Positions 24,878-56,542 of a stretch of DNA of 64,000 bases are shown piece by piece. The notes beneath the pieces were generated by a model. That model did not search any database, was not told the DNA's origin, and saw only the letters and a list, made by a program, of their open reading frames with translations. Source of the stretch: Acidobacteriaceae bacterium (GTDB taxonomy: Bacteria; Acidobacteriota; Terriglobia; Terriglobales; Acidobacteriaceae); contig DAIDKP010000009.1 in the NCBI GenBank assembly GCA_027449965.1, positions 2,753 through 66,752 on the forward strand. The letters are read 5' to 3'. The number at the start of each line of letters is the position of its first letter. Within the stretch, counting starts at the first letter, position 1. Position numbers and translations under genes: made by a program.

Positions 24878-25623
24878 AAGGCGGAGGATGTTGTGCGCTG
24901 TATGAGCGGCAGCGTGGCGAGCCAGTCGCGGATGGCCTGCTGCATGGCGTCGAGATGCCCGGTGAAGAAGTGATCGGCGTCGGGAATGAGGCGAAGCTGC
25001 GCGTGCGGCGCGGCGAGCGCGATGGTGGCGGCGAGCGCCTGGGGCGAAGCGAAGCTGTCCTGAGCGCCGGAGAGAAACAGGCTGGGCAGGCTCCAGTGAG
25101 CCAGCTGCGGATAAGCGTACTGCTGATTGGGCGAGCGTAGCGGCAGGCCCAGCGCGAGACAGGCGCAGACCGAGCGATGCGTGGCGGCAACGGCGAGCGT
25201 GATGGCTGCGCCGAAGGAAAATCCCGCGGCGAGGATGGGCCGATGTGTCTGCGTGTCGGGTAGCGGAAATTCGTCGTGCCTTGCCTTTTCGAGCTTTGTT
25301 TTTTCGAGCCAAGTGAGCGCTGCGGCCAGGTCGTCGGCTTCGGCGTGGCCGTCATGTGTGCCTTCGCTGAGGCCAACGCCGCGAAAGTTGAAGCGCAGCG
25401 TGGGCCAGCCGAGATCGCGAAAGACGCGCGCGGCGTGGTAGACGACCTTGTTGTGCATGGAGCCGCCGCCGAGCGGGTGGGGGTGCGCGAGGACGACAGA
25501 ACAAGGCGCGGAAGCATGGCCGGGATCGAGCAGCGCTTCCAGACGCCCGGCGGGTCCATCGATGAAGAATGTCCGCAGTGTGGGAGGAACGGCAGGCGTC
25601 CGAGATTCCGTGTGTGAGTCCAT
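24874..25623 (-). CDS. Alpha/beta hydrolase (XCC0279/AT2-like family)
   Basis: GPAGRLEA, HPHPLGGGSMHNKVV, RFNFRGVG.S.G, GFSFGA nucleophile elbow, ADHFF. TATCAT-N7-ATG at 25623. Confidence 0.85.
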   Translation of the reverse strand: MDSHTESRTPAVPPTLRTFFIDGPAGRLEALLDPGHASAPCSVVLAHPHPLGGGSMHNKVVYHAARVFRDLGWPTLRFNFRGVGLSEGTHDGHAEADDLAAALTWLEKTKLEKARHDEFPLPDTQTHRPILAAGFSFGAAITLAVAATHRSVCACLALGLPLRSPNQQYAYPQLAHWSLPSLFLSGAQDSFASPQALAATIALAAPHAQLRLIPDADHFFTGHLDAMQQAIRDWLATLPLIQRTTSSAL

Positions 25624-25700
25624 GAGGAAGATGATAGCGCCGGAACGAGCGCAAGCGCGGGCTGCGATATGCTGGCAGGGAGAATGCAAAGCAGGGAGCG

Positions 25701-26735
25701 GTGATGACGAGCGAAGTGGATGCGTTGGCGCTGACGCGCGAGCTGGTGAAGATTGAATCGACCACCTACAACGAAGGCGATGTGATGGAGTTTGTAGCCG
25801 AGTGGCTGCGCGAGCGAGCGTGGCTGGTGGAGACGATGGAGGTTCCGCAGCCTGCCGAGAGTGGGAACTCGGCGCGGCGGTGCAATGTCTATGCCGGACC
25901 GCGTGTGGGCGCGCCGGAGCTGGTGTTTTCGACGCATCTCGATACTGTGCCGCCGTATGTGGCGCTGCGCGAGGATGAAGAGTTTTTGTATGGACGCGGA
26001 GTGTGCGACGCGAAGGGAATTGCCGCGGCGCAGATTGCGGCTGCCGAGCGTCTGCGCGCGCAGGGTTTCGCCGTGGGATTGCTGTTTGTGGCGGGCGAGG
26101 AGCGCGACTCCGCAGGGGCCAAGGTGGCCAACGAGCAGGCCAGGGGCAGTCGATGGCTGATTAACGGTGAGCCGACCGACAATTGCCTTGCGGTTGCCTC
26201 CAAAGGCGCGCTGCGAGCGGTGGTGCGCGCCTCGGGAAGGATGGCGCATTCGGCGTATCCGGAGCTGGGCGAGTCGGCGGTGCATAAGCTGGTGGAGGCG
26301 CTGGGTCGTATGATGGCGATTCCGCTGCCGGTGACCGAGGACGTAGGCGAGAGCACGCTGAACATTGGGCAGATTGCCGGTGGACGCGCGCCGAATGTGA
26401 TTGCCGACGAGGCCAGTGCACAGGTGCTGGTACGGCTGGTGGGCGACTCCGCCGAGACGCGTGCGGCGTTGGTGGAAGCTGCGGCGGGATGTGCGGAGAT
26501 TGAGTTTCCGCTGGAGATTCCCTTTGTCCGGCTGCGCACGATCGAGGGGTTTCCGACGATGGTGGCGAAGTTTACGACGGATATTCCGCAGTTGACGAAG
26601 TGGGGCGAGCCGCTACTGCTGGGGCCGGGATCGATCCATGTGGCGCACACGCCTCACGAGAAGATTGCCAAGCGCGAACTGGTGGAGGCTGTGGACTTGT
26701 ATGAGTCGCTGGCCAGGAGACTGCTGACGAAGTGA
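25701..26735 (+). CDS. M20 family metallohydrolase (ArgE/DapE-like deacylase)
   Basis: STHLDTV, GRGVCDAKG, GEE, GEPT, GRMAHS, GPGSI..AH. Confidence 0.88.
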   Translation: MMTSEVDALALTRELVKIESTTYNEGDVMEFVAEWLRERAWLVETMEVPQPAESGNSARRCNVYAGPRVGAPELVFSTHLDTVPPYVALREDEEFLYGRGVCDAKGIAAAQIAAAERLRAQGFAVGLLFVAGEERDSAGAKVANEQARGSRWLINGEPTDNCLAVASKGALRAVVRASGRMAHSAYPELGESAVHKLVEALGRMMAIPLPVTEDVGESTLNIGQIAGGRAPNVIADEASAQVLVRLVGDSAETRAALVEAAAGCAEIEFPLEIPFVRLRTIEGFPTMVAKFTTDIPQLTKWGEPLLLGPGSIHVAHTPHEKIAKRELVEAVDLYESLARRLLTK

Positions 26736-26753
26736 GCCGCTTTGCCTGACGGA

Positions 26754-27602
26754 TTACCAGGTGTGCAGCCACTCGCCGTCGTGGCCGATGCGGACTTCGG
26801 CGCGAAAGAGATCGCTGAGCGTGGGGGCGGTGAGCAGCGTGTGACGCGGACCGTCGGCGACGATGCGCCCATCGCGCATGAGTAGCACGCGCTCGATCTC
26901 CGGGAAGATATCGGCCAGATGATGGGTGACGAGGATGATGCCGATGCCGTCGGCGGCGAGGCGGCGGAGCGCTTCGCGCAGCTCGCGCTGGGCGGCGATG
27001 TCAAGGGCGTTGGATGGCTCGTCAAGGAGCAGTTGGCGCGGACGGTGAACGAGCGCACGGGCGATGAGGATGCGGCGTTTTTCGCCTGCCGACATTTCGC
27101 CGACAAAGCGCTGCGCGAGATGTGTGGCGTCGATGCGGGCGAGCGCGTGGTGTGCGGCCTCGCGCATGGCTGCGGTGATCTCCAGATGAGGCCAGAGCGT
27201 GGAAGCGCCAAAGAAGCCGGCCAGCGTGGCGTCGAGGCCGGTGGTGCGCGCGGTCAGGCATCCGGCGGTGTCGGCGGTGCGCGAGTAGCCCTGATGGCCG
27301 GGAAGGTTGTCGGAGACGACGCCGAAGTGGCGGCGAAGCTGGTTGAGATCCCAGCGTGGACGGCCAAAGATGCGCAGTTCGGTGCCGGGCAGCACGAGCG
27401 GATAGAGTTCGCAGGTGAGTGTGCGGATGAGTGTGGACTTGCCGCAGCCGTTGGGGCCAAGGATGGCGATGTGTTCGCCGGCGCGGATGGTGAGCGAGAG
27501 ATCGTGCAGGACTTTGCGCTCGCCCAGAGTGACGGTGACGTGGCGCATTTCCAGGAAGGTTTCAGCGGAGGGTTCAGAGGGGATCGATGCAGAGCTGCTC
27601 AC
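26754..27602 (-). CDS. Stand-alone ABC ATP-binding protein (ModF-like)
   Basis: GPNGCGKST, MSAGEKRR, LLLDEP, LVTHH. GTG start at 27602. Confidence 0.8.
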   Translation of the reverse strand: MSSSASIPSEPSAETFLEMRHVTVTLGERKVLHDLSLTIRAGEHIAILGPNGCGKSTLIRTLTCELYPLVLPGTELRIFGRPRWDLNQLRRHFGVVSDNLPGHQGYSRTADTAGCLTARTTGLDATLAGFFGASTLWPHLEITAAMREAAHHALARIDATHLAQRFVGEMSAGEKRRILIARALVHRPRQLLLDEPSNALDIAAQRELREALRRLAADGIGIILVTHHLADIFPEIERVLLMRDGRIVADGPRHTLLTAPTLSDLFRAEVRIGHDGEWLHTW

Positions 27603-27620
27603 TTTGTTAGAGTAAACGGG
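27603..27620. promoter_or_regulatory. Symmetric bidirectional -10 element, leaderless in both directions
   Basis: Plus TAGAGT(27608-13)-N7-ATG; minus TACTCT(27614-09)-N6-GTG. Confidence 0.6.
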
Positions 27621-28832
27621 ATGAGCGATCTGACGAGACTGATGATTCCGCGGGGCTTTCGCTTTGCGGCGGCGACGGCTGGGCTGAAGGCAAGCGGACG
27701 ACCGGATTTTGCGTTGATTGTGGCGGACAAAGCGGCCAGTGCCGCGGCGATGTACACGGCAAACAAGGTGTGCGCGGCACCGCTGGTGCTGGACCGCGAA
27801 CACATGACGGCGACCGGAGGGCGAGTGCGCGTGGCGGCGATCAACGCCGGCAATGCCAACTGCGCTACGGGGCAGGTGGGCATTGACGCGGCCAGGCGCG
27901 TGTGTCAGGCGGCGGCGGAGCGGTTTGGCTGCCGCGCCGAAGAGGTGTTTCCGTCTTCGACGGGCATTATCGGGGTGCCGCTTGATGCGGATAAGCTGGT
28001 GCGCGCGCTGGGGTCGATGGAAGCTGCGCTGGGCGCGGATGTGGAGGATTTTCATGCTGTGGCGCAGGCGATTCTGACCACGGATACGGTGGAGAAGACG
28101 GCTTTTGCACGGGTCTTTCGCGATGGCGCGGAGATTCGCATCGCCGGTCTGTGCAAGGGTTCCGGCATGATCCATCCACAGCTTGTGCCCCATGCGACGA
28201 TGCTGGCCTATGTGATGACGGATGCGGCGGTGAAGCCGGAGGTTTTGCAGGCGATGTTGCAGGGCGCGGCGGAGCACAGCTTCAATCGTATCTCGGTGGA
28301 TGGCGACACCTCGACCAACGACACGGTGCTGGCGTTGGCGTCGGGAGTGAGTGGCGTTGCGATTGAGGCCGGAGATGCGGAGTTTCAGGCGGCGCTGGAG
28401 CAGGTGATGGTTTCACTGGCGCGGCAGATTGTGGCGGATGGTGAAGGTGTACGCCATGTGGTTGAGCTGCGCATTGAGGGCGCGGCGACGGAGGCCGATG
28501 CGGTGCGCGTGGCCAGAGCGATTGCGCACTCGCCGCTGGTGAAGACGGCGTGGGCTGGGTGCGATCCAAACTGGGGTCGGCTGATGGCGGCGATTGGCTA
28601 CTCAGGCGCGGCGATCGAGCCGGAGCGCCTGGAGATCGATTTTGGCGAACTGGCGATCTGTCGCGCAGGGGGTCGCGCGGCGGAGATGGATGTGGCGGCG
28701 GCGCACGCGTACCTGAAGCAGGCGGAGTTTGCGGTGACGGTGCGGCTGGGCATGGGCGAGGCGCGCTGCACCTTCTGGACGACCGACCTGACGGCGGAGT
28801 ATGTGCAGATCAATGCGGATTATTCAACGTAA
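27621..28832 (+). CDS. argJ: Ornithine acetyltransferase / N-acetylglutamate synthase
   Basis: GLKASG..D, INAGNANCATG, STGIIG, AILTTDT, KGSGMIHP...ATML, DGDTSTNDT, DGEG, NWGR, DLT.EYVQINADYST. Confidence 0.95.
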   Translation: MSDLTRLMIPRGFRFAAATAGLKASGRPDFALIVADKAASAAAMYTANKVCAAPLVLDREHMTATGGRVRVAAINAGNANCATGQVGIDAARRVCQAAAERFGCRAEEVFPSSTGIIGVPLDADKLVRALGSMEAALGADVEDFHAVAQAILTTDTVEKTAFARVFRDGAEIRIAGLCKGSGMIHPQLVPHATMLAYVMTDAAVKPEVLQAMLQGAAEHSFNRISVDGDTSTNDTVLALASGVSGVAIEAGDAEFQAALEQVMVSLARQIVADGEGVRHVVELRIEGAATEADAVRVARAIAHSPLVKTAWAGCDPNWGRLMAAIGYSGAAIEPERLEIDFGELAICRAGGRAAEMDVAAAHAYLKQAEFAVTVRLGMGEARCTFWTTDLTAEYVQINADYST

Positions 28833-28905
28833 GCTGAATTGCGGGTCCAACGTGGTTTTGTCAGGTCGAGTGTGACTCAATCCATGGTTTATTCCCGCCT
28901 TTGGA

Positions 28906-28934
28906 TTGACCCTCGAAGTGGCGTTCAGTAGAGT
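28906..28934 (+). promoter_or_regulatory. sigma70-type promoter, probably leaderless, for wzi-like gene
   Basis: TTGACC-N17-TAGAGT-N6-ATG(28941), no SD. Confidence 0.7.
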
Positions 28935-28940
28935 GAACCC

Positions 28941-30737
28941 ATGGCATTCTTTGCAGGAAACAGAATCAGACGGTCATGGGTGATTTCATTGGCCGGATTG
29001 CTGGCCACAGGCATGACGCTGAGCTTGCAGGCGGAGACGCCGGGCGCGGCGAGCGAAGCAGCGAACATGGCCAGCGGCGCAGGGGCTGCTGGCGGGCAGG
29101 TGACAGCGGCACCGTGTGATCTGGCGCCACAGGGTTCGCCGTATATTCCGCTGAACTTCTGGCTGTATCCGGCTTTGACGCGTCTGTACTCGCTGGGATA
29201 TCTGGACCCGGCGTTTCTGGGCCTGAGGCCGTGGACACGGCTGAGCGTGGTGCACATGCTGGAGAATACCTCGGCCAGGCTGGAGGATGCGCCGGACACA
29301 GCAGGCAACGAGGAGGCGCGCGGCATCTATGACGCTTTGATGAAGGAACTGAACATCGATGCCGAGGGTCCGTGCGGGAAATATCGCGGGGAGTTCCGCG
29401 TGGAATCGACGTATTCGGTGGAGCGCGGGATCAGCGGAACGCCGCTCCATGACAGCTACCATCTGGGCCAGACGATAGTGAACGACTATGGACGTCCGGT
29501 CGAGGGCGGCTTTGACGACTACTCCGGGGCGAGCGGGTATGCGGTCTCCGGGCCGTGGACGCTGTATCTGAGGACGGAGTTGCAGTATGCGCCGTCAGCG
29601 ACAGGCTACTCGTATTCGCTGTACAGCACGCTTTCTCAGGATGACAACGTTCCGCCGGTGGGCAACGAAGCGCAGGCAACGATTCCGCTGGGGCCAATCG
29701 CCACCAAGGCGGATACGCGTTTGCTCGAAGGCTATCTGTCAGTGCATGTTCTAGGGCACGATATTTCTTTTGGCAAGCAGGATCAGTGGTGGGGGCCGGC
29801 GGCCAGCGGCGCGTATGCCTACTCCAACAATGCGCAGAATATCTATTCGTTTGAAATCAATCGCTCGGAGCCTCTGCGGGTTCCGCTGCTTTCGCGGCTG
29901 ACGGGGCCGTTTCGCTATGAGTTTATCGTTGGCTCGCTGAAAGGACATACCCTTTTCAACGATCCGTGGGTTCATGCGGAGAAGATCAGCATGAAGCCGA
30001 CGCGGAACTTTGAGGTTGGCTTTGAGCGAACGGCGATCTGGGGCGGCGAAGGCCATGTGCCGATTACGATTCACTCCTTTTTGAAGAGTTTTTTCAGTTT
30101 CCAGAATGTTTCCTATGCAGAGAAGATTTCGCGCAACGATCCCGGCGCTCGTTTTGGCGCCTTTGATGTGAACTATCGAATGCCTTTTCTGCGGAACTGG
30201 CTGACCTTTATTGTGGACTCTGAAGCACATGATGACGTGTCGCCGGTTTCTGCGCCGCGCCGCGCTGATTTTACAACCGGATTTTATCTTTCGCATGTGC
30301 CGCGATTGCCGAAGCTGGATGCGCGCGTGGAAGCGATCATGGACGATCAATCGACCTCACGTAGTGTCGGTGGCCAGTTTACCTACTATGAAGGCGAGGT
30401 GCCGCAAGGATATACCAACCAGGGACAGATCTTTGGCCACTGGATGGGACGCGAAGGCAAAGGTGGTGAGGCGTGGTCGACGTGGCACTTCAATCCGAAG
30501 GAGTGGATTACGGTGAACTGGCGTCGGCAGAAGAATGCCAAGGACTTCATTCCTGGCGGCACGACGCTCGATGACTATGGCGTGCAGGTGGTCAAGCGGA
30601 TTACGCCGGAGATCGAACTGGACGGAACGTTTACCTATGAGGGATACAAAGCGCCAATCTATCTGCCAGGCACGCAGAGAGTAACGGCGACAACGATCCA
30701 GTTGACGTGGTTTCCAACGCGGAAGGTGAGCTTCTGA
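28941..30737 (+). CDS. Capsule assembly Wzi-family outer-membrane protein
   Basis: Signal peptide; RPWTR; FGKQDQWWGP.....YSNNA; beta-barrel-like C-terminus ending in Phe. Confidence 0.8.
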   Translation: MAFFAGNRIRRSWVISLAGLLATGMTLSLQAETPGAASEAANMASGAGAAGGQVTAAPCDLAPQGSPYIPLNFWLYPALTRLYSLGYLDPAFLGLRPWTRLSVVHMLENTSARLEDAPDTAGNEEARGIYDALMKELNIDAEGPCGKYRGEFRVESTYSVERGISGTPLHDSYHLGQTIVNDYGRPVEGGFDDYSGASGYAVSGPWTLYLRTELQYAPSATGYSYSLYSTLSQDDNVPPVGNEAQATIPLGPIATKADTRLLEGYLSVHVLGHDISFGKQDQWWGPAASGAYAYSNNAQNIYSFEINRSEPLRVPLLSRLTGPFRYEFIVGSLKGHTLFNDPWVHAEKISMKPTRNFEVGFERTAIWGGEGHVPITIHSFLKSFFSFQNVSYAEKISRNDPGARFGAFDVNYRMPFLRNWLTFIVDSEAHDDVSPVSAPRRADFTTGFYLSHVPRLPKLDARVEAIMDDQSTSRSVGGQFTYYEGEVPQGYTNQGQIFGHWMGREGKGGEAWSTWHFNPKEWITVNWRRQKNAKDFIPGGTTLDDYGVQVVKRITPEIELDGTFTYEGYKAPIYLPGTQRVTATTIQLTWFPTRKVSF

Positions 30738-30768
30738 GGGCGAAATCGCAGGTGGAAATCGGACAGAC

Positions 30769-30808
30769 AAACTCCGGGCGGATCGACTTCGATCCGCCCG
30801 GAGTTTTT
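30769..30808. terminator. Bidirectional intrinsic terminator
   Basis: Perfect 18-bp inverted repeat AAACTCCGGGCGGATCGA-CT-TCGATCCGCCCGGAGTTT(TT) between convergent genes. Confidence 0.85.
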
Positions 30809-30834
30809 GCACAGGGTGATTGCTGAGTCGTCGA

Positions 30835-31956
30835 TCAGGCGAGCATCTGGATGCCTGCGGTGCTGTAGAGGCGTGTGATGTATTCCATGTCGCGCAAACC
30901 TTCTTCGCCGGGAGTTTTGGGCGTCTGGTTATGGCGGACGCAGTGGGAGAAGTGATTGGCCTGCGCGGTGAACTGGTAGGGGTCTTTCTGCAGATTGGGC
31001 TCGTCAAGCGAGACCCATTTGCCCGAGGCGTCCTGATATTCGGCCTGGAGACGCAGGCCGTCGTAGTTGTAGGATGGGCGCGCTTCGATCCAGCCGCGCG
31101 AGCCGTAGACGTGGAAATAGCCGTCCATGCGGGAGCCGTAGGTCGTGTTGCAGCTGGCAACCACGCCGGAGGGAAATTTGGTGTTCCAAACGAGATTTTC
31201 CTCCACCTGGCGGAAACGCGGATCGGCAGGATCGCTGAAAGCGTAGGCGTGCAGGTCGGAGGGTTCTTCGCCGGTGAGGTAGCGCGTAGCGTTCAGGCAG
31301 TAGATGCCGACATCCATGAGCGGTCCACCGCCGGCGAGTTTTTTATTGATTCGCCACTCGGTGGCTCCAATATCGAAGCCGAAGGCGCTTTGAATGGACT
31401 CGACCTTGCCGATGGCTCCGCTGCGGATGAGGCTGACGGCTTTCAGGTTGGTCGGCTCATAGTGGCAGCGGTAGGCGATCATGAGCTTGACGTTGGCCTG
31501 CTTGCAGGCGTCGATCATGGCGTGAGCTTCTGCAACGTTGATGCACATGGGCTTTTCGCAGAGGACGTGCTTGCCGGCTTTGGCCGAACGTATGGTGTAT
31601 TCGGCGTGCATACTGTTGGGCAGGGCGACGTAGACGGCATCGACGTTGGGATTGTCACGGAAGCTGTCCATATTCTCGTAGTTGTAGATGGAAGAGTGGG
31701 GAACGCCGTACTTGTCCGCGTAGCGCGCGGCTTTGTCCGGATGGCCGCTGACGAGAGCTGTGACCTTGGAGTTGGGGCTGTGCTGGATGCCGTCCATGAA
31801 GTGGTCTGCGATGCGCCCGAGGCCGATGATGGCGTAGCCAACGGGCTTGTCTGAAGACGTAGCCTGCTCAGAGGACTGAGCGAGGAGCGGCGGCGCGAAA
31901 CGTGAGGCAAGAGCGGCAGCGCCCAGCGCTGTGAACTGGCGACGTGTGAACGACAT
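30835..31956 (-). CDS. Tat-exported Gfo/Idh/MocA oxidoreductase (glucose-fructose oxidoreductase-like)
   Basis: SFTRRQF twin-Arg; GLGRI; DAVYVALPN..H; HVLCEKP; GGGPLMDVGIY. Confidence 0.9.
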   Translation of the reverse strand: MSFTRRQFTALGAAALASRFAPPLLAQSSEQATSSDKPVGYAIIGLGRIADHFMDGIQHSPNSKVTALVSGHPDKAARYADKYGVPHSSIYNYENMDSFRDNPNVDAVYVALPNSMHAEYTIRSAKAGKHVLCEKPMCINVAEAHAMIDACKQANVKLMIAYRCHYEPTNLKAVSLIRSGAIGKVESIQSAFGFDIGATEWRINKKLAGGGPLMDVGIYCLNATRYLTGEEPSDLHAYAFSDPADPRFRQVEENLVWNTKFPSGVVASCNTTYGSRMDGYFHVYGSRGWIEARPSYNYDGLRLQAEYQDASGKWVSLDEPNLQKDPYQFTAQANHFSHCVRHNQTPKTPGEEGLRDMEYITRLYSTAGIQMLA

Positions 31957-37832: not shown

Positions 37833-37954
37833 AAGCCAGACCGAATCCATGGCTGAATCTCGGTTCGACATTCTCCGCGGACAACGGATCTGCGTTCCCG
37901 GACAGGCTCTTCGCTGGCATCGCCCATTTACACTAGTAAACGGAGAGCTACGCC

Positions 37955-40912
37955 TTGTTCAGCAAGTTTTTAACGAAGATATTTGGTACGAGCAATGATC
38001 GCGCCGTGAAGCGCATGATGCCGGTGGTGGCGCGCATAGGCGCTTTTGAGTCCGAGATAAAGGCCCTGACGGACGAGCAGCTGCGGGCAAAAACGGTGGA
38101 GTTTCGCGAGAGGGTTGCCGCGCAACTGGCCAGTGTTACCGAGGCCGAGGCGCGCAAGACAGCCGAGAAGGCCGCGCTGGATGAGCTGCTGCCGGAGGCT
38201 TTTGCCGTGGTGCGCGAGGCCGGCAGGCGCGTGCTGAAGATGCGCCACTTTGATGTGCAGTTGATCGGCGGTATGGTGTTGCACCAGGGCAAGATTGCCG
38301 AGATGCGGACCGGCGAGGGCAAGACGCTGGTGGCGACGCTGGCCTGCTATCTGAACGCGCTGGCCGGCCATGGCGTGCATGTGGTTACGGTGAACGATTA
38401 TCTGGCCAAGCGCGACGCCGAGTGGATGGGCAAGATCTATACGTTTCTGGGCTTGACCGTGGGCGTGATCGTGCATGATCTGGACGATACGCAGCGGCGC
38501 GAGGCGTATGCGGCGGATATTACCTATGGCACGAACAATGAATTCGGCTTTGATTATCTGCGCGACAACATGAAGTTTGATGTGAAGGATTGCGTGCAGC
38601 GCGGGCACTACTACGCGATTGTCGATGAGGTGGATTCGATCCTGATTGACGAGGCGCGGACGCCGCTGATTATCTCCGGCCCGACGGACCAGACGACCGA
38701 CAAATATCAGCGCGTGAAGAAGATCATTCCGCACCTGGAGCAGGGTGAGGAGATTGAAAAAGAAGAGATGGTCAAGATTCTCACCGGCGACTATGTGGTC
38801 GATGAGAAGATGCGCACGATCAGCGTGACCGACGACGGCTGGCTGAAGATTGAGGAGCTGCTGGGGATTGGCAACATTGCCGACCCGGAGAACTGGGATC
38901 TGAAGCACTACGTGGAGACGGCGATCAAGGCGCATTCGCTGTATAAGCGCGACGTGGACTACGTGGTGAAGGATGGCGAAGTGATCATCGTGGACACCTT
39001 CACCGGGCGACTGATGCCGGGACGGCGGTGGTCCGACGGGCTGCACCAGTCGGTGGAGGCCAAGGAAGGTGTTTCGATCCGCAAGGAAGATCAGACGTTG
39101 GCGACGATTACTTTTCAGAACTACTTCCGGCTCTACGGCAAGCTTTCCGGCATGACGGGCACGGCGGAGACCGAGGCATCGGAGTTCGACAGCATCTACA
39201 AGCTCGATATCACGGTGATTCCGACGAACAAGCCGATGTTGCGCGCCGATAACTCGGATGTGGTCTACCGGACGGTGAAGGAAAAATACAAGGCTGTCGC
39301 CGACGACATTGCGGAGATTCACAAGAACGGGCAGCCGATTCTGGTGGGCACCACGTCGATCGAAAAGAGCGAGCTGCTCTCGCAGACGCTGCAACGCAAG
39401 GGCGTGAAGCATGTGGTGCTGAACGCCAAGTTCCACGAGCGCGAAGCGGAGATTGTGGCGCAGGCTGGCCGCTTTGGCATGGTGACGATTGCGACAAATA
39501 TGGCCGGTCGCGGAACGGATATTCTGCTGGGCGGCAATGCCGAATTCATGACGCGGCAGGAGCTGGTGAAAAAGGGTCAGGCGCGTTCGATCAGCGTGGC
39601 GGAGGGAGCAATCAATCCGACAGCGCCTGCGGGCTTTCTGCGTTTCTATTATCAGGGGCAGGAGTTTGAGACTGAACTGCGGCAGTGGGAAGAGGTTTTT
39701 GCTGTCCACGCGGCGGCTGCGGATCAGGAGCGCGAAGCGGTGATCGGAGCCGGAGGGTTGTTCATCCTGGGTACGGAACGGCACGAATCCCGGCGCATCG
39801 ACAACCAGTTGCGGGGCCGCGCGGGCCGACAGGGCGATCCCGGCGCGTCGCGTTTCTATCTGTCGCTTGAAGACGATCTGATGCGCATCTTTGCCAAGGC
39901 GTGGGTCTCCACGCTGCTGGAACGGCTGGGCATGGAAGAGGGCGTTCCCATTGAGTCCAAGATGATCTCCAAACGGATCGAGGGCGCGCAAAAGGCCGTG
40001 GAAGCGCAGAACTTCGAGTCGCGCAAGCATCTGCTGGAGTACGACGACGTGATGAACAAGCAGCGCGAGGCGGTCTATGGACTGCGTCATGAGTTGCTGC
40101 TTGGCATGGAGCAGCGGGAGCTGATTCTGGAGGACTACGTCACCACCATTCTCGGCAATGTGCTGAATGAGTTTGCCGACGAGCAGAAGCATCCGGAGCA
40201 GTGGGATCTGAAGGGGCTGAAAGCGCGATTGGTGGACCTGTTCGGCTTCAATCTGGATGAGGCGAAGATAGATCCGATGGAGATGACCCGGCATGAGCTG
40301 GGCGAGACGATCTATGAGCAGTTGAAAGCACACTACGAGCAGAAGGAATCCATCCTGGGCATGGAGGCGATGCGGTATCACGAGCGGATGGTGATGCTGA
40401 GCGTGCTGGATGGCCTGTGGAAGGATCATCTGCTGTCGATGGATCACCTGAAGGAAGGGATCGGGTTGCGCGGATATGCGCAGCAGGATCCGTTGGTGGC
40501 GTACAAAAAAGAGTCCTTCGATATGTTTGAGGCGATGATGATGCGCTTCCAGGAGGACACGGCGCGGTACCTCTTCCGGATGCAGATTGTGGGTCCGGAT
40601 GGTCAGCCCGTGACGGCGGCTCCCTCGGTGCGGCGTGAGGTTCCGGCGGCGCCTCCGGTGGCCAGCGCGACGGTGAATCCGGTGCGCGAAATCGCGGTGC
40701 CGACGCGAGCACCGGCGACGACGATCGATGCGCTGGAACGGGAGTTTGAACGAAAGAAACAGCGCGAACTGGAAGCCGCGCGAATGGCAGGGCCAGCGGG
40801 CGGTGCAACGACGGCGACGCCGCGTACTGTGGGCGCCAAGGTTGGGCGAAACGATCCTTGTCCATGTGGGTCCGGAAAAAAGTACAAGAAGTGCCACGGA
40901 GCGGAAGGCTGA
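37955..40912 (+). CDS. secA: Preprotein translocase ATPase
   Basis: [48 protein letters not shown]-terminal [13 protein letters not shown]; TTG start with GGAG SD. Confidence 0.97.
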
Positions 40913-55530: not shown

Positions 55531-55615
55531 GGGGCTATGCGCAGTGTAACGGCTGAACCACAACACCAGCCGCGGGGTGAGGCGAGAGGCTTTGTTGCCG
55601 GGTTAGAGTAAAAAC

Positions 55616-56542
55616 ATGCACAGCCATGCGAACGAGTCCTCGCCGACGGAGATGAATGCAGTGACGGAGCACTTTGCCGAGTCCGTGCGGATCATGGCTC
55701 GATTGCGCGCACCGGATGGGTGCCCGTGGGATCGGAAACAGGATTTTGATTCGATTCGGAAATACACGCTGGAAGAAACCTGGGAAGTGCTGGATGCGAT
55801 TGAGCGGCGCGACTGGGACAATCTGCGCGAAGAGTTGGGCGACCTCACACTGCAAGTGCTTTTCTATGCGCAGATGGCGAGCGAGTCGGAGGAAGCGGGA
55901 TTTTCCATCGCCGATGTGCTGGCGGAGTTGAATCGCAAGCTGGTGCGACGACACCCGCACGTCTTCGGTGAGGCGGCTTCGCGTGCGGCTGGAAATCGTG
56001 TGGAAGTGGATGCTGCCGTGGATGGCTCGTCCGAACGCGTGCTGGCCAACTGGGAGGCAATTAAACAAGCGGAGAAGCAAGCGGCAAAATCTGCGGTCAG
56101 CCAGGATCTGCGCAGCAGCCTGCTGGACGGCGTGGTGCGAGGCCAGCCCGCTTTGGCTGAAGCGGCACAGATTGGATCGAAGTCGGCCAGAGTTGGATTT
56201 GACTGGCCTGCTTGGTCTGATCTGCTGAAAAAGCTGGCCGAGGAGACGGACGAACTGGTGGCCGAGGTCGATACGCCGGAACATACTCCGCAACGGCAGC
56301 AGCGTGTCGAAGCTGAACTGGGCGATCTGTTATTCACCGCAGCGCAACTGGCGCGGCATCTCGGCGTCGATGCGGAGATGGCATTGCGAGGAGCGAATCT
56401 GCGTTTTCGGCGGCGATTTGCCTGGATGGAGTGGGCGGCAGAACGAGGATTGGCAGACCTGGAGCCGGAGGCTCTGGAAGAACTGTGGCGACGCGCCAAG
56501 CTTGAGCTGGCAACGACAGAATCGGGAGACGGGAAGCGATGA
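55616..56542 (+). CDS. mazG: Nucleoside triphosphate pyrophosphohydrolase
   Basis: LRAPDGCPWDRKQ, EELGDL, KLVRRHPHVF, GFDW, ELGDLLF, F.RRF; TAGAGT-N6-ATG. Confidence 0.93.
   Translation: MHSHANESSPTEMNAVTEHFAESVRIMARLRAPDGCPWDRKQDFDSIRKYTLEETWEVLDAIERRDWDNLREELGDLTLQVLFYAQMASESEEAGFSIADVLAELNRKLVRRHPHVFGEAASRAAGNRVEVDAAVDGSSERVLANWEAIKQAEKQAAKSAVSQDLRSSLLDGVVRGQPALAEAAQIGSKSARVGFDWPAWSDLLKKLAEETDELVAEVDTPEHTPQRQQRVEAELGDLLFTAAQLARHLGVDAEMALRGANLRFRRRFAWMEWAAERGLADLEPEALEELWRRAKLELATTESGDGKR

What the first reader, a model, noticed from the sequence alone, without database searches (positions are those of the whole stretch)
27600..27623. One 7-bp symmetric -10 element serving two leaderless genes back to back
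Seen: only 18 bp (TTTGTTAGAGTAAACGGG) separate the GTG of the ABC ATPase (27602, minus) from the ATG of argJ (27621, plus). TAGAGTA reads TAGAGT (with extended TG) on plus, 7 nt from ATG, and TACTCT on minus, 6 nt from GTG. There is no room for an SD. Established: overlapping symmetric -10 boxes give divergent TSS pairs about 18 bp apart in E. coli. Inference: a minimal bidirectional promoter whose two TSSs are both start codons, so expression of the two genes is coupled or mutually exclusive.
Basis: partly seen in the sequence, partly recalled or inferred. Interest (0 to 1): 0.7.

Follow-up and report, generated by a model that had tools for sequence, protein, structure and literature searches.

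The report
Shared two-way promoter, two leaderless genes
The 18 bases between an ABC ATPase gene and the arginine-synthesis gene argJ are an invariant promoter core that very probably starts both messages at, or one base from, their start codons; this is a compact and well-conserved example of a promoter type already known from E. coli.

Summary
GTG (27602, minus) and ATG (27621, plus) are separated by the 18 bp TTTGTTAGAGTAAACGGG. It holds TGtTAGAGT on plus and TACTCT on minus, overlapping so that A-11 of each pairs with T-7 of the other. This is the 18-bp geometry of known bidirectional promoters.

- **Start codons:** both are supported by comparison. The ATPase's internal Met is not conserved, and argJ's ATGAGYGAT is.
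- **Conservation:** 16 of 18 positions are invariant in all 17 species of the genus with the gene pair, beside diverged flanks. The element is single-copy.
- **Family level:** in 16 of 19 other genera examined, argJ carries a TGnTAGAGT-type box 6-13 nt before its ATG.
- **ATPase elsewhere:** it has TANNNT 6-7 nt before its start even in four genera where argJ is not its neighbour.
- **Compact gaps:** four lineages have gaps of 18-25 bp.
- **This genome:** it uses leaderless starts, with a TANNNT peak 12 nt upstream of start codons.
- **ArgR rival rejected:** real ARG boxes sit at the argR-argCBDFGH operon and none sits here.

"Coupled or mutually exclusive" expression is untested. Verdict: a new member of a known kind, of moderate interest.

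The parts
26754..27602 (-). Solitary ABC-type ATPase gene (282 aa, GTG start at 27602-27600). It has no adjacent permease gene.
   Evidence: PF00005 at 92 bits; no NCBIfam equivalog reached its cut-off. An in-frame ATG or GTG lies 0-4 nt after the conserved 18-mer in all 17 species of the genus.
27603..27620 (.). Invariant 18-mer TTTGTTAGAGTAAACGGG. It is the whole intergenic gap and the proposed bidirectional promoter core.
   Evidence: 16 of 18 positions are identical in 17 species while the flanks have diverged. It is single-copy per genome, and matches outside the genus are not at this locus. It is not held in a fixed reading frame relative to the ATPase (offsets 0, 2 and 4 nt), so it is non-coding.
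27605..27613 (+). Extended -10 element TGtTAGAGT for argJ.
   Evidence: Read from the sequence. TGnTAGAGT-type boxes (variants TAGACT, TAGAAT, TACAGT, TAAAGT) lie 6-13 nt before the argJ ATG in 16 other genera.
27609..27614 (-). -10 element TACTCT for the ATPase gene. It overlaps the plus-strand hexamer by 5 bp, so that A-11 of each pairs with T-7 of the other.
   Evidence: Read from the sequence. Geometry as in bioRxiv 10.1101/2020.01.31.928960. ATPase orthologues elsewhere have TANNNT 6-7 nt before their start.
27620..27621 (+). Predicted argJ transcription start (G27620 or A27621), giving a 0-1 nt leader.
   Evidence: Inference from the 7-8 nt distance to the -10 hexamer. Not measured.
27602..27602 (-). 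Predicted ATPase transcription start, the G of GTG, 18 bp from G27620.
   Evidence: Inference from the 7-nt distance to TACTCT. Not measured.
27621..28832 (+). argJ (403 aa), bifunctional glutamate N-acetyltransferase / amino-acid acetyltransferase.
   Evidence: NF003802 at 474 bits, cut-off 351. The start ATGAGYGAT (MSD) is conserved in 16 of the 17 species of the genus analysed (ATGAATGAC in L006). An independent gene call on an ENA contig also gives 403 aa.

Best explanation
The 18-bp gap is a minimal bidirectional sigma-70-type promoter with no -35 element. One pseudo-symmetric heptamer, TAGAGTA, supplies TAGAGT on the plus strand, strengthened by an upstream TG (extended -10), and TACTCT on the minus strand.

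RNA polymerase can open this region in either orientation. It would start argJ mRNA at G27620 or A27621 and ATPase mRNA at G27602. Both mRNAs are therefore leaderless (0-1 nt leader) and are translated without a Shine-Dalgarno sequence.

Shown:
- the sequence geometry;
- both start codons;
- invariance of the element across the genus;
- the family-wide argJ box;
- leaderless-type signals for the ATPase in other genera;
- genome-wide use of leaderless starts.

Inferred:
- the transcription start sites;
- activity in both directions.

The family comparison also suggests the shared promoter is old. Leader lengths on both sides have varied: 0 to about 75 nt for the ATPase and 0-254 nt for argJ. 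The 18-bp state belongs to a clade with small genomes.
For: 1. **Geometry.** The plus A-11 (27609) pairs with the minus T-7, and the plus T-7 (27613) pairs with the minus A-11. The predicted starts are 18 bp apart, the commonest spacing at E. coli bidirectional promoters with a shared -10.

2. **Start codons.**
- The ATPase N-terminal extension is open, varies in length, and ends at an in-frame ATG or GTG 0-4 nt from the 18-mer in 17 species.
- The internal Met is I in L009 and F or L in L079, L085, L090 and L099.
- argJ ATGAGYGAT is conserved.

3. **Conservation.** 16 of 18 positions are invariant, against 35-65% identity in the flanks. The element is single-copy.

4. **Family level.**
- The divergent ATPase-argJ pair is kept in about 20 of 28 other genera.
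- In 16 of them a cTTGATAGAGTAAAA-like box lies 6-13 nt before the argJ ATG, with no Shine-Dalgarno sequence.
- Three other lineages also have compact gaps: 21 bp (L091), 24 bp (L092) and 25 bp (L097). TAGAGTA is the only TANNNT pair in each.

5. **ATPase without argJ next to it.** The signal persists: TAAGCT-6-GTG (L072), TATGCT-6-ATG (L080), TATCCT-7-ATG (L082) and TATTCT-7-ATG (L089).

6. **This genome.**
- TANNNT peaks 12 nt upstream of candidate starts: 156 against about 48 background. At 13 nt the count is 81. GTG starts are also enriched, 41 against 17.
- Earlier computational work predicted 9.7-19.4% leaderless genes in three Acidobacteria genomes (PMC3160421).
- The next gene (ATG 28941) has TTGACC-17-TAGAGT-6-ATG, conserved in 7 species.
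Against:
- TACTCT matches TATAAT at only 3 of 6 positions. It has T at position 4 (12% in this genome's leaderless set) and neither an upstream TG nor a G at -14.
- Neither TAGAGT nor TACTCT is enriched among this genome's predicted leaderless -10 boxes.
- Neither direction has a conserved -35, and the consensus promoter scan found nothing.
- The A after TAGAGT, which gives the minus-strand T-12, is part of an A-run. That run is also present in L017, where no ATPase is adjacent, so it need not reflect the minus-strand promoter.
- Invariance of all 18 bases is more than a -10 element needs.
- In nine larger-genome species of the genus the box lies 44-254 nt from argJ, so its plus-strand use there is unproven.
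Confidence: 0.6

Rival explanations
1. The promoter works in one direction only. The 18-mer is the argJ promoter, and the ATPase is transcribed from a weak, unconserved promoter inside the argJ coding region. Its mRNA then carries the 18-mer as a short leader and is translated without a Shine-Dalgarno sequence, for example helped by the A-rich AACAAA.
For: - The plus-strand box is much the better promoter (extended TG, family-wide conservation).
- TACTCT is a poor -10 by this genome's own profile.
- Only about 45% of Acidobacteriia genes have a Shine-Dalgarno sequence, so initiation without one on leadered mRNAs must be common (PMC10783764).
Against: - The first 30 nt of argJ vary freely among L001-L007, and no TANNNT is present there.
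- In species with long spacers, nothing beyond the 18-mer is conserved upstream of the ATPase.
- ATPase orthologues away from argJ have their own TANNNT 6-7 nt before the start.
Confidence: 0.2
2. The 18-mer is also, or instead, the operator of a DNA-binding regulator other than ArgR, and that binding explains why all 18 bases are frozen. The regulator would control one or both genes.
For: 18-bp invariance across species whose proteins are only 62-70% identical exceeds ordinary promoter conservation. GTT-N6-AAC forms a weak inverted repeat within the element (read from the sequence).
Against: - The element is single-copy per genome, and no regulon-like copies exist at up to 2-4 mismatches.
- Across genera only the extended -10 and the A-run are kept, not the flanks.
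- There is no strong dyad symmetry and no regulator gene nearby.
- Dual-strand promoter constraints can account for every position.
Confidence: 0.12
3. ArgR operator: the conserved element is an ARG box through which arginine represses argJ.
For: argJ is an arginine-biosynthesis gene, and the genome encodes ArgR.
Against: The genome's real ARG boxes are easy to see. They are two tandem boxes, TTTGCATATTTATACAAA and TGCGTATATTTATGCAAG, before argR-argCBDFGH, at 2 and 4 mismatches to the E. coli consensus. The argJ region has nothing better than 7 mismatches.
Confidence: 0.03
4. The start codons are misassigned. The ATPase starts at the internal ATG (27548) and/or argJ at the second ATG (27642), so the true gap is longer and ordinary leaders exist.
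For: Both alternative codons exist in this genome.
Against: - The ATPase Met is not conserved, while the FL before it is.
- The ABC profile begins at residue 17.
- argJ residue 8 is M, V or L, encoded by CTG in L009 and L018, whereas MSD at residue 1 is conserved.
- Neither internal ATG has a Shine-Dalgarno sequence before it.
Confidence: 0.03

Closest known systems
Bidirectional promoters arising from -10 element symmetry (Warman, Grainger and colleagues; bioRxiv 10.1101/2020.01.31.928960; PMC12825309)
   Same: Two -10 hexamers overlap on opposite strands, with position 2 of one paired to position 6 of the other. The predicted divergent starts are 18 bp apart, and a short shared core suffices for both directions.
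   Different: In that work the transcripts were mapped in E. coli, and the examples read here (acrR/acrAB, pfs/dgt) concern leadered genes. Here both start codons sit at the predicted starts, so the promoter core is the entire intergenic region. The organism is an uncultured Acidobacteriaceae bacterium and nothing has been measured. Neither of the two papers I searched mentions leaderless genes. No paper in the searchable library joined 'leaderless', 'bidirectional promoter', '10 element' and 'divergent'.
Leaderless genes with TANNNT about 12 bp upstream of the start codon (Actinobacteria and Deinococcus-Thermus; predicted for Acidobacteria in PMC3160421; mapped in Deinococcus deserti, PMC4007540)
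   Same: A -10 box lies 6-7 nt before ATG or GTG, with no Shine-Dalgarno sequence and no clear -35. GTG is accepted as a 5'-terminal start.
   Different: The passages read from those studies describe single genes. Here two genes share one box.
Extended -10 (TGn) promoters
   Same: TGtTAGAGT lacks a conserved -35. The TG is conserved across the genus, and as TTGA-TAGAGT across the family.
   Different: The hexamer matches TATAAT at only 4 of 6 positions, and the same DNA also has to serve the opposite strand.

Membership tests
Bidirectional promoter with shared -10 element | Two -10 hexamers on opposite strands overlap so that A-11 of one pairs with T-7 of the other. | tested here: met
   TAGAGT is at 27608-27613 (+) and TACTCT at 27614-27609 (-). 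Positions 27609 and 27613 are the shared A/T pairs (definition).
Bidirectional promoter with shared -10 element | Divergent transcription start sites 7-25 bp apart, most often 18 bp. | not testable with these tools
The predicted starts at 27602 and 27620 are 18 bp apart, by inference only.
Bidirectional promoter with shared -10 element | Both directions are used productively. | tested here: inconclusive
   Both flanking genes are conserved and intact, and no other conserved promoter-like element exists. This is indirect evidence.
Leaderless bacterial genes | A TANNNT -10 box starts 12-13 nt upstream of the start codon, and no Shine-Dalgarno sequence is present. | tested here: met
   The distance is 13 nt for argJ and 12 nt for the ATPase. 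These match the genome-wide peaks at 12 and 13 nt.
Leaderless bacterial genes | The mRNA 5' end lies at, or within a few nt of, the start codon. | not testable with these tools
   No RNA data were available.
Leaderless bacterial genes | The organism uses leaderless initiation at scale. | tested here: met
   There is an excess of about 180 candidate starts with TANNNT at 12-16 nt, out of about 2,400 crude gene calls. PMC3160421 predicts 9.7-19.4% leaderless genes in Acidobacteria.
ArgR operator (ARG box) | An 18-bp near-palindrome of the type TNTGAATWWWWATTCANW, usually in tandem. | tested here: not met
   The best match in 27561-27660 has 7 mismatches. Tandem boxes with 2 and 4 mismatches occur before argR-argCBDFGH.
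ArgJ (NF003802 / PF01960) | A full-length profile match above the curated cut-off. | tested here: met
   474 bits against a cut-off of 351, residues 6-403; PF01960 at 454 bits.
ABC transporter ATPase (PF00005) | An ABC_tran domain above the cut-off, and assignment to a named subfamily. | tested here: inconclusive
   PF00005 scores 92 bits. No NCBIfam equivalog reached its cut-off; the best was a heme ABC ATPase at 145 bits against 261. No permease gene is adjacent.

The most novel reading that the evidence does not exclude
The frozen 18-mer is an orientation switch. Both -10 boxes occupy the same 7 bp and both mRNAs begin within 1 nt of their start codons, so only one polymerase orientation can be engaged at a time. 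An unknown factor that reads the invariant flanks (TTTG and AAACGGG) would bias that choice, making argJ and ATPase expression anticorrelated. This shared core would also be what has kept two unrelated genes locked together across the family.
Probability: 0.12. Interest if true: 0.65.

Novelty: new member of a known kind. Interest (0 to 1): 0.4.

Why it matters
If confirmed, this shows that a bacterial intergenic region can shrink to the bare 18-bp core of a two-way promoter, with no leaders and no ribosome-binding sites, in a phylum (Acidobacteriota) for which I found no transcription-start mapping in the searchable library.

The family comparison offers a natural series. The same anchored promoter drives leaderless, short-leader and Shine-Dalgarno-led versions of the same two genes. 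That could be used to study how leadered and leaderless expression interconvert, and how a shared promoter preserves gene order.

It also has a practical use for annotation. Gene callers that expect a ribosome-binding site may misplace starts at such loci.

Tried and rejected
- **Metatranscriptome-like contigs.** An exact-protein look-up gave one ENA contig that starts 62 nt upstream of argJ. It confirms the gene calls but is uninformative about transcript ends. The ATPase was not on record in either length.
- **Consensus promoter scan.** It found 0 sites. It requires a -35, so this says little about -10-only promoters.
- **Repeated motif or regulon.**
  - The 18-mer is single-copy in this genome.
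  - It is single-copy in each of the four genus-g1 genomes in the 301-genome family scan. The eight matches at 2 mismatches in other genera are no more frequent than the reversed-pattern control and are not at this locus.
  - A 14/18 look-alike near secA (about 37923) is a different promoter with its own Shine-Dalgarno sequence.
- **ArgR operator.** Rejected.
- **Known RNA families.** None in 25000-31000 at E <= 1, apart from one chance hit.
- **Conserved structured leader.** The long argJ spacers of larger-genome relatives are heterogeneous, with tandem repeats and lineage-specific hairpins.
- **Other back-to-back pairs in this genome.** My crude gene caller found no second convincing case. 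It also mis-called this very locus, merging argJ with a shadow ORF and dropping the ATPase. Its genome-wide leaderless count is therefore a lower bound and its negative result is weak.
- **Closest solved structures of the ATPase.** These were only generic ABC domains.
Full report
**What is in the sequence**

One search shows cac at 27600-27602 (GTG on the minus strand), then TTTGTTAGAGTAAACGGG at 27603-27620, then ATG at 27621.

The minus-strand ORF from the GTG encodes a 282-aa ABC-type ATPase. It matches PF00005 at 92 bits, but no named subfamily reached its cut-off.

The plus-strand ORF encodes ArgJ (403 aa). It matches NF003802 at 474 bits against a cut-off of 351, with residues 6-403 on profile positions 6-400.

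The promoter-like elements are:
- **Plus strand:** TAGAGT at 27608-27613, preceded by TG in the extended -10 register, 7 nt before the ATG.
- **Minus strand:** TACTCT at 27614-27609, 6 nt before the GTG.

The heptamer is pseudo-symmetric (TAnnnTA) rather than palindromic.

**Are the start codons right?**

I fetched the locus from 17 further genomes of the same genus and 23 from the family and order. The organism is an uncultured Acidobacteriaceae bacterium; named relatives are MAGs, and Terriglobus roseus is a distant one.

For the ATPase:
- The stretch between the 18-mer and the conserved F-L-x-M-x-x-V motif is open in every species.
- It differs in length (8 to 31 codons) and in sequence.
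- It always begins with an in-frame start codon 0, 2 or 4 nt from the 18-mer. This is GTG in the seven closest species and ATG in the rest.
- The offset changes among 0, 2 and 4 nt, so the 18-mer itself is not coding.

The Phe-Leu two residues before it is conserved. The ABC profile also begins at residue 17. The upstream start is therefore real.

For argJ, ATGAGYGAT (Met-Ser-Asp) is conserved across the genus. Residue 8 varies (ATG, GTG, TTG, CTG) as an ordinary hydrophobic position. An independent gene call on an ENA metagenome contig also gives 403 aa.

**Conservation of the gap**

I anchored 17 species on the element. Positions 1-16 are identical in all, and positions 17 and 18 in 16 and 14 species. 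Flanking columns are 35-65% identical. The proteins themselves are 62-95% identical.

The element is single-copy in this genome and in each genome of the genus. Matches with two mismatches in other genera are no more frequent than for a reversed control pattern, and they are not at this locus. It is therefore not a dispersed repeat or a regulon-wide operator.

Only the seven species with small genomes (2.9-3.3 Mb) have argJ abutting the element. In the ten larger-genome species (4.2-7.1 Mb for the nine with a genome handle) the element stays 2-4 nt from the ATPase start, but argJ lies 44-254 nt away. It is separated by heterogeneous sequence, including tandem repeats and lineage-specific hairpins.

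**The wider family**

The ATPase orthologue occurs in 58 of 142 sampled genera. In about 20 of the 28 best loci it is the divergent neighbour of argJ.

On the argJ side, 16 genera carry a box of the form cTTGATAGAGTAAAAgcc. This is an extended -10 (TGnTAGAGT, with variants TAGACT, TAGAAT, TACAGT and TAAAGT) followed by an A-run. The ATG lies 6-13 nt after the hexamer, most often 11, and no Shine-Dalgarno sequence intervenes. argJ is thus leaderless, or has a leader of a few nucleotides, throughout the family, and TAGAGT is its -10.

On the ATPase side, the start codon or a GGAG-type Shine-Dalgarno sequence begins directly after TACTCT. Leaders range from 0 to about 75 nt.

Four lineages have very small gaps in which TAGAGTA is the only TANNNT pair:

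| Lineage | Gap |
|---|---|
| This clade | 18 bp |
| L091 | 21 bp |
| L092 | 24 bp |
| L097 | 25 bp |

Where the ATPase is not next to argJ, it still has a TANNNT box 6-7 nt before its start:
- L072: TAAGCT-6-GTG, with an in-frame stop immediately upstream.
- L080: TATGCT-6-ATG.
- L082: a terminator hairpin, then TATCCT-7-ATG.
- L089: TATTCT-7-ATG.

This is the best indirect evidence that the minus-strand box here is used.

**Does this genome use leaderless starts?**

I built a crude self-trained gene caller and measured where TANNNT falls upstream of candidate start codons.

| Distance upstream of start | TANNNT count |
|---|---|
| 12 nt | 156 |
| 13 nt | 81 |
| 14 nt | 72 |
| Other offsets (background) | about 48 |

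- At 12 nt, ATG and GTG are enriched but TTG is not.
- No -35 signal appears.
- G is favoured two bases before the hexamer.

The excess of about 180 starts is a lower bound, because the caller mis-called this very locus.

Published computation predicted 9.7-19.4% leaderless genes in three Acidobacteria genomes, with TANNNT about 12 bp upstream (PMC3160421). Only 45% of Acidobacteriia genes have a Shine-Dalgarno sequence (PMC10783764).

The gene after argJ is a Wzi-like protein with ATG at 28941. It has TTGACC-17 nt-TAGAGT-6 nt-ATG, conserved in seven species. This shows the same hexamer in a textbook leaderless promoter 1.3 kb away.

**Mechanism**

The two hexamers overlap so that A-11 of one pairs with T-7 of the other. 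With the usual 7-nt distance the starts fall at 27620 and 27602, 18 bp apart.

I conclude, with about 60% confidence for both directions together, that the gap is a -10-only bidirectional promoter producing two leaderless mRNAs. For argJ alone my confidence is roughly 80%, and for the ATPase roughly 65%.

Every one of the 18 positions then lies in an element for one strand or the other. On the plus strand these are the TG, the -10, the discriminator and the start. On the minus strand they are the -10, the 6-nt spacer and the start. This may explain the invariance.

**Evidence against, and rivals**

- TACTCT is a weak box, and neither hexamer is among those enriched in this genome's leaderless set. 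The enriched ones are TACAAT, TACACT and TATACT.
- The A following TAGAGT belongs to an A-run that also occurs where no ATPase is adjacent (L017).
- A one-directional promoter, with the ATPase read from inside argJ, remains possible (about 20%).
- An unknown regulator binding the 18-mer could add to the constraint (about 12%).
- An ArgR operator is rejected. The genome has ArgR at the head of an argR-argCBDFGH operon whose promoter carries two clear tandem ARG boxes. The argJ region has no match better than 7 mismatches.
- No Rfam family matches the region.

**Coupling or exclusivity**

Nothing here bears on it. In E. coli, basal bidirectional promoters were too weak for polymerase competition, and interference appeared only when one direction was strongly activated (PMC12825309).

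**Novelty**

Both ingredients are known. No paper in the searchable library combined 'leaderless', 'bidirectional promoter', '10 element' and 'divergent'.

Earlier unchecked notes of this scan describe similar back-to-back leaderless pairs in Patescibacteria, a hot-spring bacterium and a phage. The architecture is therefore probably widespread.

I rate this a new member of a known kind. Its added value is depth of conservation and the natural series of leader lengths around one anchored promoter.

Noticed in passing
window 28906-28943: The gene after argJ is a 598-aa Wzi-like capsule-assembly protein (PF14052 on an ENA gene call). It has a textbook leaderless promoter: TTGACC (28906-28911), a 17-nt spacer, TAGAGT (28929-28934), 6 nt, then ATG at 28941. 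The arrangement is conserved in the seven closest species.
   Followed up: partly
window 55604-55618: A third TAGAGT box is followed by AAAAAC and ATG (55616), which opens a 308-codon ORF. It is another candidate leaderless gene.
   Followed up: no
own genome, contig C26:82124-90313 (outside the window): An argR-argC-argB-argD-argF-argG-argH cluster plus an acetyltransferase lies on one strand, divergent from a gltB-like gene. Its promoter region holds two tandem ARG boxes, TTTGCATATTTATACAAA and TGCGTATATTTATGCAAG, separated by GA. argJ lies outside this ArgR-controlled cluster.
   Followed up: partly
relatives L009, L011, L012, L014, L015, L040: the 3 nt after the 18-mer: In larger-genome species, where argJ is 44-254 nt away, a start-like codon (ATG, TTG or GTG) still follows AAACGGG directly, at the position of the argJ ATG in this window. 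This holds in 13 of 17 species, or 4-5 of about 7 lineages. The short ORFs it opens (3-26 codons) are not conserved. It could be a relic of an ancestral abutting start or a leaderless upstream ORF. Unexplained.
   Followed up: partly
relatives L011-L013 and L014, argJ spacers: L011-L013 share a hairpin, CCCATGTCTC-N6-GAGACATGGG, with base changes that keep the pairing. L014 has a long tandem array of GTGTGAAGTGTGA-like units. These look like intergenic insertions in the larger genomes.
   Followed up: no
window 37923-37957: Upstream of secA (TTG start at 37955) lies TACACTAGTAAACGGAGAG. Its complement matches the 18-mer at 14 of 18 positions. It has its own GGAGAG Shine-Dalgarno sequence, so it appears to be an unrelated short-leader promoter.
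   Followed up: partly
window 25701-26772: An M20-family peptidase-like gene (ArgE/DapE-like by its N-terminal sequence; identified from memory, not by profile search) converges on the ATPase gene. Only 18 bp separate the two stop codons (26735 and 26754), and the scan reports no terminator-like hairpin.
   Followed up: no
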